This document shows positions 27,736 through 30,355 of a stretch of DNA of 64,000 bases, piece after piece; the stretch's first letter is position 1; every line of letters starts with the position of its first letter. A program made the position numbers and the translations under genes. The notes beneath the pieces are model-generated. The model had not been told where the DNA came from. It did no database searches and saw nothing but the letters and a program-made list of their open reading frames with translations. This DNA comes from Betaproteobacteria bacterium. Its GTDB lineage: Bacteria; Pseudomonadota; Gammaproteobacteria; Burkholderiales; SG8-41. The stretch spans positions 17,318 to 81,317 of the forward strand of contig JANYDY010000016.1 in the NCBI GenBank assembly GCA_025363435.1. The letters are read 5' to 3'.

Positions 27736-27826
27736 TAGGGGTATCCCGGTTCATGTGTGATGAGGGCGCAATTCTAAACAATTCAGGGGACAACGCCTAC
27801 AGGAAAGGGGGCAAATTCGAGTGGTT

Positions 27827-27835
27827 TGTTACAAT
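27827..27835 (+). promoter_or_regulatory. Putative extended -10 promoter of metG
   Basis: TGtTACAAT, 27 nt before the ATG at 27863. Confidence 0.45.
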
Positions 27836-27862
27836 TCGCTGCTTGATCGGAATGCCCGCCAA

Positions 27863-30355
27863 ATGACTCGCAGAATCTTCGTCACCACCGCCCTGCCCTA
27901 CGCCAACGGCTCGTTCCACATCGGCCACATCATGGAGTACATCCAGGCCGATATCTGGGTGCGTTTCCAGCGCATGCAAGGGCATGAAGTCCATTTTGTC
28001 TGCGCCGACGACGCCCACGGCGCGCCCATCATGCTCAAAGCCGAATCCGAGGGCATTACACCTGAACAACTGGTCGGCCGCATCGCCGCCGAGCGCCCGA
28101 AATACCTCGAGGGCTTCCACATTGCCTTCGATAACTGGCATTCGACCCACTCGCCGGAGAACACCGAACTCTCGCAGGATATCTACCGCAAGCTGAAGGC
28201 GGCAGGGCTGATTTACACCAAGTCGATCGAGCAGTTCTACGACCCGGTCAAACAGATGTTCCTCGCCGACCGCTACATCAAGGGCGAATGCCCGAAATGC
28301 TCTGCCCGCGACCAGTACGGCGACGCCTGCGAAGTCTGCGGCGCCGTCTACGCGCCGACCGATCTGAAGAACCCGTACTCGACCCTGTCGGGCGCCAAAC
28401 CGGTAATGAAATCGTCGGAGCATTACTTCTTCAAGCTCTCCGACCCGAAGTGCAAGGAATTCCTGCAGAACTGGCTCGACCAGAGCGGCCATCTGCAGCC
28501 GCAAGTCGCCAACAAGGCGCGCGAATGGCTGACCGGCGACGGCGACAAAGCGCTCGGCGACTGGGACATTTCGCGCGACGCGCCCTACTTCGGCATCCCG
28601 ATTCCCGACGCGCAGGGCAAGTATTTCTACGTCTGGCTCGACGCACCGGTTGGTTACCTGGCGAGCTTCAAGAACTACTGCGCGAAGAAGGGTATCGACT
28701 TCGACAAATTTCTCGCCGACCCGGCGACCGAGCAGATCCACTTCATCGGCAAGGACATCATTTACTTCCACACGCTGTTCTGGCCGGCCATGCTGCACTT
28801 TGCGCAGAAGAAAACGCCAAACCAGATCAACGTGCACGGTTTCATCACCGTCTCCGGCGAGAAAATGTCGAAGTCGCGCGGCACCGGCATCAGCCCGCTG
28901 CGCTACCTCGACGTCGGCATGAATCCGGAATGGCTGCGCTATTACATCGCCGCGAAGTTGAATGCGAGCGTTGAAGACATTGACTTCAATCCGGATGACT
29001 TCATGGCGCGGGTGAATAGCGATTTGATTGGGAAGTACGTGAATATTGCAAGCCGCTGCGCGGGCTTTATCAATAAGCGATTTAATGGCCAACTCGTAGC
29101 AGTTGAACCAACCAACGAGCTCATTCAACAGATTCAAGCATCCGCTAAAAAAATCAGTGATTATTTTGATAATCGAGAATATGGGAGAGCAATTCGCGAA
29201 ATTATGTTCGATATTGATAACGCGAATGCATTTGTAGATCAGGTAAAACCCTGGGAACTCGCAAAACAAGCAGGTGCCGAAACGCAACTCCAGCAAGCGT
29301 GTTCTGATGCCCTAAATATGTTTCGCCTATTCACCATTTATTTGAAACCTATATTGCCAAGATTGGCTCATCAGGTCGAAGAATTCTTTGGTATCGATTC
29401 ACTAACTTGGTCTGATGCTAAAACCCTTCTACCTGCTAGACACCGAATCAATAATTACAGTCATCTCATGTCCCGCGTCGAAGAAAAACAACTCGACGCC
29501 CTGCTCGAACTCGACGCGCCGCCCCCCTCTCCCTCCGGGAGAGGGGCTGGGGGTGAGGGAAAAAAGCACAAACGTCCACTCCCGGAAAATCTCCTCGGCT
29601 TCGCCAGAAAACTCCGCAGCGAGCAAACCGATGCTGAGCAACTCATCTGGGGCCTGCTGCGCGATCGCCGACTCGCCAACGCCAAATTCCGTCGCCAGCA
29701 CCCGATCGAAGCCAGCGGAAAAAACTACGTCCTCGATTTCTACTGCGACGAGCTGAAACTCGCCATCGAACTCGACGGCGGCCAACATCAAACTGCGGCG
29801 ACGGTCGATGCCGCGCGCACGGCTGCGCTGAAAAAGGCCGGAATTACCGTCGTTCGCTATTGGAACAACGACGTTCTGCAGCAAACCGAAGTCGTCCTCG
29901 AGTCAATCTGGAATGCGATCATGGAAAAGTCTCCGCAAGATAAAAATCTTCCCTCACCCCCCGCCCCTCTCCCGGCGGGAGAGGGGGGCAAACCCGACGC
30001 CAGAGCAACTGCGGCGGCAGCAAGCAATACCATCTCGATCGACGATTTTTCGAAAATCGATCTGCGCATTGCCAAGATCGTCAATGCAGAAACGGTGGAA
30101 GGCGCCGACAAGCTCTTGAAGCTCACGCTCGACGTCGGCGCGCTCGGCACCAAGCAGGTTTTCGCCGGCATCAAATCCGCCTACGATCCGGCGACGCTGG
30201 TCGGCAGGCATACAGTGATGGTGGCCAACCTGGCGCCGCGCAAGATGAAGTTCGGCATGTCCGAAGGCATGGTGCTCGCCGCTTCCGGCGACACACCCGG
30301 ACTTTTCATACTCTCGCCGGACAGCGGTGCGCAGCCCGGAATGAAAGTGAAATAG
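27863..30355 (+). CDS. metG: Methionyl-tRNA synthetase with an in-frame DUF559 endonuclease insertion (830 aa)
   Basis: ALPYANG.HIGH, CPKC/CEVC knuckle, WDISRD, KMSKS, C-terminal tRNA-binding OB domain ([12 protein letters not shown]...SEGMVLAA); about 155 extra aa in the linker. Confidence 0.97.
29521..29561 (+). repeat. Left palindromic arm of the cassette
   Basis: 10-bp hairpin cccctctccc-tcc-gggagagggg followed by ctgggggtgaggg; reads [13 protein letters not shown] in the metG frame. Confidence 0.9.
29949..29989 (-). repeat. Right palindromic arm of the cassette
   Basis: ccctcaccccccg then hairpin cccctctccc-ggc-gggagagggg; reads [13 protein letters not shown]. Confidence 0.9.

What the first reader, a model, noticed from the sequence alone, without database searches (positions are those of the whole stretch)
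28955..29468. Low-GC patch covering the MetG anticodon-binding domain directly upstream of the nuclease cassette
Seen: a hand count gives 145/360 (40%) GC over 29101-29460 versus 81/120 (about 67%) over 28501-28620 of the same gene. Codons shift to A/T-ending (att, gat, aat, cta, cga) while the frame stays open and motifs such as KPWELAK and YLKPILP are retained. Inference: the tRNA-recognition domain of an essential gene was replaced by a foreign allele or is a recurrent recombination/mutation hotspot. It may be a co-conversion tract linked to the adjacent endonuclease, or diversification under phage or toxin pressure.
Basis: partly seen in the sequence, partly recalled or inferred. Interest (0 to 1): 0.72.

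Follow-up and report, generated by a model that had tools for sequence, protein, structure and literature searches.

The report
Swapped low-GC anticodon domain in metG
The low-GC stretch is real: the tRNA-anticodon-binding part of the essential methionyl-tRNA synthetase gene has been replaced by a very different allele, and in this bacterial family that part is exchanged like a cassette between close relatives.

Summary
Observation confirmed. GC3 in metG falls from about 0.85 to about 0.30.

The low-GC stretch is a divergent block, window 29050-29461, covering the helical anticodon-binding domain (ABD). Its flanks are 90-100% identical in DNA to genus-mates; the block is 33-60% identical. One 556-nt Logan contig spans both junctions, so it is not a chimera.

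G000 is not alone.
- In its family, genes with 90-95% identical catalytic domains have ABDs about 45% identical. In other families the figure is 81-96%.
- 110 metagenomic MetRS with catalytic domains at least 84% identical to G000's fall into 44 ABD types. 20 of 68 pairs with at least 97% identical catalytic domains carry ABDs under 60% identical.
- The ABD tree contradicts the catalytic tree (AU p = 5e-8).
- dS in the block is saturated while dN/dS stays low.

This points to recombinational exchange of old, functional alleles. No donor above 71% identity exists in the collections searched.

Co-conversion with the adjacent DUF559 cassette is not supported. The selective driver is unknown.

The parts
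27863..30355 (+). metG (methionine--tRNA ligase), 830 aa from ATG 27863. The open frame starts at GTG 27821, and residue numbers in this report count from 27821.
   Evidence: ORF. Pfam tRNA-synt_1g residues 19-413 (E 4e-148), Anticodon_3 431-558, DUF559 593-700, tRNA_bind 748-841. The database copy P0001 is 830 aa.
28868..29049 (+). Left conserved anchor: end of the catalytic/KMSKS part and the first ABD helix with the VNIASR motif. Inferred site of the left crossover.
   Evidence: 82-98% nt identity to the nearest genus-mate L003 in 15-codon windows. blastn alignments of all 5 genus-mates end at 29049-29068. Codon alignment.
29050..29461 (+). Replaced low-GC block: the helical anticodon-binding domain (residues about 410-547), GC about 0.41, GC3 about 0.33.
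   Evidence: 33-60% nt identity to genus-mates. 37-49% aa identity, against 82-96% in the catalytic domain. In runs X1 and X2, contigs of co-occurring relatives join 29049 to 29461, skipping 411 nt.
29462..29520 (+). Right conserved anchor (last ABD helix, [16 protein letters not shown]), lying between the block and the DUF559 cassette. Inferred site of the right crossover.
   Evidence: 90-100% nt identity to L003, L002, L005 and L012. blastn resumes at 29456-29468 in all 5 genus-mates.
29521..29989 (+). In-frame DUF559 (Vsr-like nuclease) cassette in the MetRS linker, bounded by 41-nt inverted repeats (29521-29561 and 29949-29989). It neighbours the finding but has a separate history.
   Evidence: Inverted repeat 95% complementary. 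Pfam DUF559 E 3e-33. Absent from L002-L007, L009, L011, L012 and L015, as judged by gene length and the alignment gap.
30062..30343 (+). C-terminal tRNA-binding (Trbp111-like) domain, of native genus type.
   Evidence: Pfam tRNA_bind E 1e-23. 79-98% aa identity to genus-mates, 98% to L003.

Best explanation
The low-GC patch is a recombinant cassette. About 410 bp encoding the helical anticodon-binding domain (ABD) of MetRS were replaced by a deeply diverged but functional allele. The inferred route is two homologous crossovers, one in each of the conserved stretches that bracket the domain (28868-29049 and 29462-29520). This is one instance of a family-wide state. In this Burkholderiales family (GTDB sense) the MetRS ABD exists as dozens of allele types about 40-50% identical to each other. 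These types are exchanged among strains, species and genera, while the catalytic and C-terminal domains stay 80-99% identical. Shown here: the sharp breakpoints, the native flanks, the phylogenetic conflict, the saturated dS with low dN/dS, the bimodal identity distribution, the conserved anticodon-recognition residues and the unchanged tRNAs. Inferred: that exchange goes by homologous recombination in the anchors, and that the alleles are functionally equivalent. Low GC3 is a property of the cassette pool, not of a sampled donor; G000 holds its most extreme member. Why the pool is so diverse is unresolved. It could be balancing selection by an unknown antagonist, or a recombination hotspot tied to the mobile elements in the linker.
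For: - **Breakpoints.** nt identity to L003 is 93-98% in the windows just upstream (28853-28913), 80-96% up to about 29030, 33-60% across 29048-29440, and 90-93% from 29468. All 5 genus-mates stop and resume at the same places. This is the only hole inside a long ORF in about 60 kb colinear with G002.
- **Not a chimera.** In runs X1 and X2 a 556-nt Logan contig covers 29005-29560 without mismatch. X3 and X4 bridge the right junction.
- **Family pattern.** For pairs with catalytic identity 90-95%, family clade A gives n=21 with ABD median 45% (33-80). The 12 pairs from 7 other families with catalytic identity of at least 90% give ABD 81-96%.
- **Phylogeny.** Clade A is one starred clade in the catalytic tree but needs 17 changes on the ABD tree. 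The AU test rejects the catalytic-tree clade on ABD data (p = 5e-8) and clade A monophyly (p = 2e-4).
- **Rates.** L001/L003 dN is 0.571 in the block against 0.044 in the catalytic domain, with dS saturated against 0.53. dN/dS in the block is 0.03-0.14 for other family pairs. Six of nine control pairs (five other families, plus L022/L054) have block dS within about 25% of catalytic dS. L075/L080 have block dS 0.93 below flank dS 1.36, which indicates a recent transfer between genera.
- **Population scale.** 110 complete MetRS fall into one catalytic cluster at 85% but 44 ABD clusters at 70%. 20 of 68 pairs with catalytic identity of at least 97% have ABD under 60%, for example P0178/P0187 at 99.5/44.5. 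The ABD identity histogram is bimodal.
- **Function kept.** 23 of 144 block positions are at least 95% conserved, including N408, R412, P477 and W478. Two tRNA-CAT genes are 97-100% identical in most genus genomes that match.
- **Composition.** Catalytic-minus-ABD GC3 drop: 37 family alleles average 0.21, 27 are at or above 0.15, and G000 is the largest at 0.48. The 41 alleles of other families average 0.03, with 3 at or above 0.15.
Against: - No donor was found. The best ABD match is 71% among 5.8 billion proteins, 61% in 401 genomes of the order, 64% full-length in the species collection, and 45% and 53% in phages and plasmids. The event cannot be dated or sourced.
- Even within allele types the block is more diverged than its flanks at synonymous sites. 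A locally raised substitution rate on top of exchange is therefore not excluded.
- Nearly all the data are MAGs or metagenome contigs. Conserved flanks shared by co-occurring relatives (flank depth about 100-190, patch depth 13) could let assemblers mis-pair catalytic domains and cassettes. Some of the '99% catalytic / 45% ABD' protein pairs may be assembly artefacts.
- Pairs are not independent.
- The control families contribute only 12 close pairs.
Confidence: 0.85

Rival explanations
1. Co-conversion tract of the adjacent DUF559 nuclease cassette. On this view, homing of the cassette into the metG linker copied the donor's upstream exon sequence, the ABD, along with it.
For: - The patch ends 60 bp from the cassette.
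- The only other member of G000's ABD type at 70% or more, P0003, also carries DUF559.
- All three lineages seen with DUF559 in MetRS also show ABD swaps: this family; L037/P0095, with catalytic identity 94% and ABD 61%; and the P0035 lineage.
- Among pairs with catalytic identity of at least 96%, ABD-swapped pairs (n=30) also differ more downstream. Their C-terminal median is 93.4%, against 98.2% in 38 unswapped pairs.
Against: - Among 12 DUF559-bearing MetRS, DUF559 identity does not follow ABD identity (Spearman -0.14, p 0.26). It does follow C-terminal identity (0.69).
- G000's DUF559 is closest to L008's (83%), whose ABD is 50% identical. P0003's DUF559 is only 67% identical to G000's.
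- 10 DUF559-positive proteins lie in 8 of 44 ABD clusters, and 4 of those clusters also hold DUF559-free members.
- DUF559-free genus-mates are equally divergent.
- The stretch 29462-29520 between block and cassette is of native genus type, 100% identical to the DUF559-free L012 over the windows at 29468-29527.
- GC3 is about 0.33 in the block and 0.60-0.73 in the cassette.
Confidence: 0.1
2. In-situ accelerated evolution or targeted hypermutation of the ABD, with no import. AT-biased mutation would lower the GC.
For: - No donor has been found.
- Low GC3 is shared by most family alleles, whatever the host GC3.
- Within allele types the block has higher dS than the flanks: L002/L003 2.04 against 0.45, L007/L008 2.55 against 0.79.
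Against: - ABD identity is bimodal, with modes at about 40-50% and 75-100% and a trough at 65-70%. It is not a continuum.
- Allele types are shared across genera against the catalytic tree, for example {L012, L074, L075, L080} with 100% SH-aLRT support (AU tests).
- In one pair the block is younger than its flanks (L075/L080).
- Both borders are sharp.
- No variant positions were reported between 28984 and 30151, which includes the whole patch, in the four runs. Contigs hide rare variants.
Confidence: 0.04
3. Assembly artefact: the MAG contig joins two organisms inside the conserved parts of metG.
For: - The assembly is a 118-contig MAG.
- The sample holds many relatives that share the flanks.
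- metG is broken at contig ends in several related MAGs: G042, G010, G015, G017.
Against: - One unbranched 556-nt contig from an independent assembly (Logan) carries the patch with 45 nt of genus-type sequence on its left and 100 nt on its right, in X1 and X2.
- Both flanks and about 60 kb around them are colinear with genus-mates.
- No other organism in the collections searched holds this ABD at more than 71% identity.
- X1 and X2 may be the sample the window was assembled from, so they are independent in assembler only.
Confidence: 0.01

Closest known systems
Mosaic alleles of essential genes made by interspecies homologous recombination (penA and pbp2x of Neisseria and Streptococcus; recalled, not read here)
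   Same: Blocks of foreign sequence with sharp borders inside a conserved essential gene. The flanks follow the species tree and the block does not.
   Different: In those cases a known antibiotic selects a catalytic-domain block with a changed property. Here the block is the tRNA-anticodon domain. Its recognition residues and the tRNAs are unchanged, there are dozens of allele types, and no selective agent is known.
Homeoalleles of aminoacyl-tRNA synthetases (PMC3191353; passages read)
   Same: Divergent forms with the same function coexist in a higher taxon. They replace each other among relatives, sometimes by recombination in conserved flanking regions.
   Different: Homeoalleles are described as whole genes in two forms (TyrRS, ThrRS, SerRS). 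Here the unit is one domain inside the gene, and there are at least 33-44 types. MetRS is not mentioned in that paper ('methionyl' occurs 0 times).
Segmentally variable genes (PMC387263; passages read)
   Same: A variable region of at least 70 residues is embedded in a conserved gene. The paper names aaRS as a family with a conserved catalytic part and a less conserved tRNA-distal part.
   Different: That concept describes variability across distant genomes. It does not address strain-level cassette replacement, phylogenetic conflict or a composition shift. Its aaRS example is the ProRS insertion domain.
Co-conversion of flanking sequence by homing endonuclease genes, including intron-less homing in T-even phages (recalled)
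   Same: A nuclease gene sits beside a sharply diverged stretch of an essential gene.
   Different: The shared history of nuclease and tract was tested and not found; the nuclease cassette travels with the other (C-terminal) flank.
Hypervariable central domains between conserved ends, as in flagellin fliC or the target-recognition domains of hsdS (recalled)
   Same: Conserved anchors flank a swappable, highly polymorphic, often lower-GC middle part.
   Different: Those domains face antibodies or phages, or set DNA specificity, so variation changes function. The MetRS ABD is cytoplasmic and its specificity (anticodon CAU) is fixed.

Membership tests
Bacterial class I methionyl-tRNA synthetase (MetG with C-terminal Trbp111-like domain) | Catalytic Rossmann domain with HIGH and KMSKS motifs | tested here: met
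   Pfam tRNA-synt_1g, E 4e-148, residues 19-413. FHIGH and KMSKS are present in the translation.
Bacterial class I methionyl-tRNA synthetase (MetG with C-terminal Trbp111-like domain) | Helical anticodon-binding domain with the anticodon-contacting Asn/Arg and Trp | tested here: met
   Pfam Anticodon_3 at 431-558. The stretch aligns without gaps through the domain to E. coli MetRS 1qqt_A residues 353-545 (E 1e-48). N408, R412 and W478 are at least 95% conserved in 110 alleles. Their equivalence to E. coli N391, R395 and W461 is recalled, not tested.
Mosaic gene made by homologous recombination | Sharp breakpoints with flanks that keep the identity level of the surrounding genome | tested here: met
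   breakpoints at 29049/29050 and about 29461. Flanks are 90-100% identical in DNA to the nearest genus-mates; the block is 33-60%.
Mosaic gene made by homologous recombination | The block has a different phylogeny from the flanks | tested here: met
   Trees. AU tests give p = 5e-8 and p = 2e-4.
Mosaic gene made by homologous recombination | An identifiable donor lineage | tested here: not met
   Best matches are 71%, 61% and 64%. The nearest relatives outside the family have high GC3, 0.69-0.97.
Homing-endonuclease co-conversion tract | The tract is contiguous with the nuclease insertion and shares its history | tested here: not met
   60 bp of native type lie between them. Spearman correlation of DUF559 with ABD identity is -0.14, and with the C-terminal domain 0.69. 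ABD clusters mix DUF559-positive and DUF559-free members.
aaRS homeoalleles | Deeply divergent forms of identical function with a patchy distribution among close relatives | tested here: met
   with low dN/dS. Identical function is inferred from conserved residues and unchanged tRNAs; it was not assayed.
aaRS homeoalleles | The unit of replacement is the whole gene | tested here: not met
   Here only residues of about 410-547 are replaced. Whole-gene replacement does also occur in the family: G011, of the same genus, has a clade-B metG.

The most novel reading that the evidence does not exclude
The MetRS anticodon-binding domain may be a polymorphic intracellular target. On this reading a phage protein or an injected or secreted toxin docks on this domain. 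Negative frequency-dependent selection would then keep dozens of old, functionally equivalent cassettes circulating, much as for surface antigens but inside the cell. Unchecked notes of this scan report similar AT-shifted, swapped tRNA-binding ends in cysS and gltX of other phyla. If those hold, this could be a general feature of class I synthetases.
Probability: 0.2. Interest if true: 0.9.

Novelty: new variant of a known kind. Interest (0 to 1): 0.7.

Why it matters
Aminoacyl-tRNA synthetases are textbook conserved housekeeping genes and are widely used as phylogenetic and MLST-type markers. Here one whole functional domain of an essential synthetase behaves like a hypervariable, horizontally exchanged cassette. 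There are at least 33-44 types among genes whose catalytic domains are at least 84% identical to G000's and link into one cluster at 85%. Swaps occur between genes that are 99% identical elsewhere.

If single molecules confirm this, three things follow.
- metG is an unsafe marker in these lineages.
- The helical ABD is a modular unit that tolerates exchange.
- There is a concrete, testable question: what maintains such diversity in a cytoplasmic domain whose substrate does not change? The candidates are an unknown antagonist or a recombination hotspot created by in-frame mobile elements.

It also explains why metG breaks MAG assemblies in this group.

Tried and rejected
- **Donor search.** The ABD alone was searched against 5.8 billion proteins, 401 genomes of the order, one genome for each of 185,579 species, phages and plasmids. 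Nothing exceeded 71%.
- **Low-GC donor lineage.** The nearest relatives by amino acids have GC3 of 0.69-0.97 in this domain (L091-L106). Only L107 (0.51) is depressed. Rejected.
The count of third positions that are A/T in G000 only shows no excess in 28961-29049, so the breakpoint is placed at 29049/29050.
- **Co-evolution with tRNA.** Rejected. Two of the three tRNA genes with anticodon CAT were searched in 29 genus genomes. One matched in 24: 6 non-self copies at 100%, 15 at 99%, and 4 partial hits at 79-82%. The other matched in 22: 12 non-self copies at 100%, 7 at 97%, and 6 weaker or partial hits. The third was not searched.
- **A general property of class I ABDs in this genus.** The IleRS control (20 relatives) shows no hypervariable ABD. 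Only this one control gene was run.
- **Silent ABD copies in G000 for intragenomic conversion.** Only one match to the ABD exists in G000.
- **Earlier notes of this scan.** Those near this place and on look-alike DNA returned nothing.
- **Literature.** Searches for DUF559 as a mobile element, for MetRS mosaicism or recombination, and for hypervariable aaRS core genes found no paper describing this. Only listings were seen for those hits.
- **Timeout.** The alignment timed out and was rerun with faster settings.
Full report
**1. Observation.** GC over 28955-29468 is 0.422, against 0.601 for the 2.97-Mb, 118-contig assembly G000. In 30-codon windows GC3 is 0.70-0.93 in the first 380 codons, 0.27-0.40 over codons 421-550, and 0.53-0.90 afterwards. 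GC1 and GC2 barely change, so the shift lies in synonymous codon choice. Of 29,208 500-bp windows in the genome, 36 are at or below 0.45 GC. They form 11 regions, one of which is this patch. By ORF inspection only, the other ten look intergenic (one lies between dnaA and dnaN) or cover whole small or accessory ORFs.

**2. Anatomy.** The gene is metG. Its open frame runs 27821-30355, and the likely start is ATG 27863, which gives the 830-aa database copy P0001. Residue numbers below count from 27821.
- Pfam finds the class I catalytic domain at residues 19-413, the MetRS anticodon-binding domain at 431-558, an in-frame DUF559 nuclease domain at 593-700, and the C-terminal tRNA-binding domain at 748-841.
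- The DUF559 cassette is bounded by 41-nt inverted repeats at 29521-29561 and 29949-29989.

**3. Breakpoints.** Twelve same-genus metG genes were compared. They are 82-96% identical in the catalytic domain and 79-98% in the C-terminal domain, but only 37-49% over residues 421-550.
- At DNA level, identity to the closest relative (L003 from G014) is 93-98% in the windows just upstream (28853-28913) and 80-96% up to about 29030. It is 33-60% across 29048-29440 and 90-93% from 29468.
- The codon alignment places the borders at 29049/29050 and about 29461.
- blastn of 20 kb against five genus-mates ends at 29049-29068 and resumes at 29456-29468 in all five.
- Over about 60 kb colinear with G002, the only alignment hole inside a long ORF is this one, together with the DUF559 insert.
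I found no excess of G000-specific A/T third positions there.

**4. Not a chimera.** Four runs of one study hold the stretch. They are kept as contigs, and X1 and X2 may be the source sample.
- In X1 and X2 a 556-nt contig covers 29005-29560 without mismatch. It therefore bridges both junctions. A 717-nt contig then continues through the cassette.
- X3 and X4 bridge the right junction.
- Summed depth is about 100-190 on the conserved flanks and 13 on the patch, so many relatives in the sample share the flanks but not the patch.
- Contigs of such relatives join 29049 to 29461, skipping 411 nt, at depth 7.6 in X1 and 6.4 in X2. These are the same borders as in G000.
- 13.1 + 7.6 is close to the flank depth of this organism's own contigs (19-29). 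This hints at two alleles in one population, but contigs cannot prove it.

**5. The whole family does this.** I extracted 78 metG genes: genus, family f1 and the order.
- In family clade A, pairs with 90-95% identical catalytic domains (n=21) have ABDs at a median of 45% (33-80).
- Genus g176 of the same family, which has a different catalytic clade, gives 38-62% at 86-90%.
- The 12 pairs from 7 other families with catalytic identity of at least 90% have ABDs at 81-96%.
- Across all identity bins the family's ABD identity is flat at about 44%. It does not decline further with distance.
- One locus, L073, comes from a genome flagged unpublished (G432). It is one of the 37 family alleles, and no claim depends on it alone.

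**6. Phylogeny and rates.**
- The catalytic tree puts 28 genes in one starred clade A. On the ABD tree the same label needs 17 changes.
- ABD types are shared across genera, for example {L012 g1, L074 g172, L075 g20, L080 g169} with 100% support.
- ABD data reject the catalytic-tree clade {L001, L002, L003, L005, L006, L012} (AU p = 5e-8) and clade A as one clade (p = 2e-4).
- Nei-Gojobori estimates: in six of nine control pairs the block dS is within about 25% of the catalytic dS (0.39/0.42, 0.80/0.77, 0.65/0.67, 0.68/0.60, 1.09/1.29, 1.10/0.87). In the other three, one side is saturated or both are very high.
- Family pairs have a much older block: L002/L003 2.04 against 0.45, L007/L008 2.55 against 0.79. 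For L001/L003 dS is saturated against 0.53, with dN 0.571 against 0.044.
- dN/dS in the block stays at 0.03-0.14.
- For L075/L080 the block (dS 0.93) is younger than the flanks (1.36), which indicates a recent inter-genus transfer.

**7. Population scale.** The 119 non-self database proteins closest to G000's catalytic domain are 84-92% identical to it. Of the 120 sequences including G000's own, 110 are complete.
- Their catalytic domains form one single-linkage cluster at 85%. Their ABDs form 44 clusters at 70% and 33 at 60%.
- The ABD identity histogram is bimodal, with modes at 40-50% and 75-100% and a trough at 65-70%.
- 20 of 68 pairs with catalytic identity of at least 97% have ABD under 60%. 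Examples are P0178/P0187 (99.5/44.5) and P0193/P0218 (99.2/49.6, with C-terminal identity 100).
- Only 23 of 144 block positions are at least 95% conserved, among them N408, R412, P477 and W478. In the catalytic domain 265 of 385 are.
- Caveat: these are metagenome assemblies, in which shared flanks could cause mis-pairing.

**8. Donor and composition.**
- No donor was found. Best matches are 71% (P0002) and 70% (P0003) among 5.8 billion proteins, 61% in 401 genomes of the order, 64% full-length in one genome for each of 185,579 species, and 45% and 53% in phages and plasmids.
- The nearest relatives outside the family have GC3 of 0.69-0.97 in this domain.
- Low GC3 belongs to the family's cassettes. 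The catalytic-minus-ABD GC3 drop averages 0.21 in 37 family alleles, with 27 at or above 0.15 and G000 the largest at 0.48. In 41 other alleles it averages 0.03, with 3 at or above 0.15.
- One allele type keeps a GC3 of about 0.5 in hosts whose catalytic-domain GC3 ranges from 0.70 to 0.89.

**9. Link to DUF559.** The insert occurs in 7 of the 78 genes, judged by Pfam on G000's own gene and 11 of the other long frames, and in 10 of the 120 proteins.
- Among 12 DUF559-bearing MetRS, DUF559 identity tracks the C-terminal domain (Spearman 0.69) and the catalytic domain (0.37), but not the ABD (-0.14).
- P0084 against L075 gives catalytic 61, ABD 39, DUF559 86 and C-terminal 96.
- The ten DUF559-positive proteins lie in 8 ABD clusters, 4 of which are shared with DUF559-free members.
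- Points in favour of some link remain. G000's only ABD-type mate, P0003, also has DUF559. Swapped pairs also differ more downstream (C-terminal median 93.4% against 98.2%). A second, gammaproteobacterial-looking lineage with DUF559 inserts also shows swaps, though fewer: 119 proteins fall into 23 ABD clusters, the largest with 78 members, and 27% of 51 pairs at 94-97% have ABD under 60%.
- Palindromic repeat units lie in the metG linker region in 9 of 37 family genes and 2 of 41 others.

**10. Controls.**
- Two of the three tRNA genes with anticodon CAT are 97-100% identical in most genus genomes that match. The ABD is therefore not tracking its substrate.
- IleRS, another class Ia enzyme, shows no hypervariable ABD in 20 genus relatives.

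**11. Interpretation.**
- Shown: a domain-sized, sharply bounded, phylogenetically foreign, functional allele sits between native flanks, and this is a recurrent state of the family.
- Inferred: exchange goes by homologous crossovers in the two conserved anchors, and the alleles are functionally equivalent.
- Unresolved: why so many old alleles persist and why they are AT-shifted. Candidates are balancing selection by an unknown antagonist, a hotspot linked to the linker's mobile elements, or a mobile vector pool.

**12. Comparison with what is known.** The nearest concepts are:
- mosaic essential genes (recalled);
- aaRS homeoalleles, which are whole-gene, come in two forms, and sometimes replace each other through flanking recombination (PMC3191353, passages read);
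- segmentally variable genes (PMC387263, passages read).

Full-text searches found no description of a hypervariable MetRS ABD. Two others report similar swapped tRNA-binding ends in cysS and gltX; I did not check those two.

Noticed in passing
window 29521-29989: An in-frame DUF559 nuclease cassette with 41-nt inverted repeats sits in the MetRS linker. The same kind of insert recurs in at least three MetRS lineages. Its sequence similarity follows the C-terminal domain rather than the ABD: P0084 against L075 gives catalytic 61%, DUF559 86% and C-terminal 96%.
   Followed up: partly
G000:C87:76943-79891 (locus L174/L175), IleRS residues about 265-320: G000's ileS carries a 28-residue insertion plus a diverged stretch with GC3 of 0.40-0.45. 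It is 11-39% identical to 20 genus relatives in that window, and the 18 relatives without any insert there share a near-identical motif at this point. Only G005 has a partly similar, shorter insert.
   Followed up: no
loci L026 (G011), L078-L090: The family holds two deep catalytic-domain clades of metG. One genome of the same genus (G011) has the other clade, at 67% identity. Whole-gene replacement therefore also occurs.
   Followed up: partly
G042:C85, G010:C17/C105, G015:C260, G017:C416: metG is cut at contig ends in several related MAGs. This is as expected if co-occurring strains share flanks but differ in the cassette.
   Followed up: no
loci L006, L007, L086, L049 (metG linker): Palindromic repeat units like those flanking the DUF559 cassette occur in linkers that lack DUF559. 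They could be footprints of the cassette or independent insertions.
   Followed up: no
phage and plasmid collections (hits H3-H6, H13): Full metG genes are carried on E. coli phage and plasmid records of about 108 kb: 190 Escherichia plasmid records match. None is close to this ABD (43-44%).
   Followed up: no
G000:C46:37201-37900: A low-GC region lies between ORFs that read like dnaA and dnaN. It is probably the replication origin.
   Followed up: no
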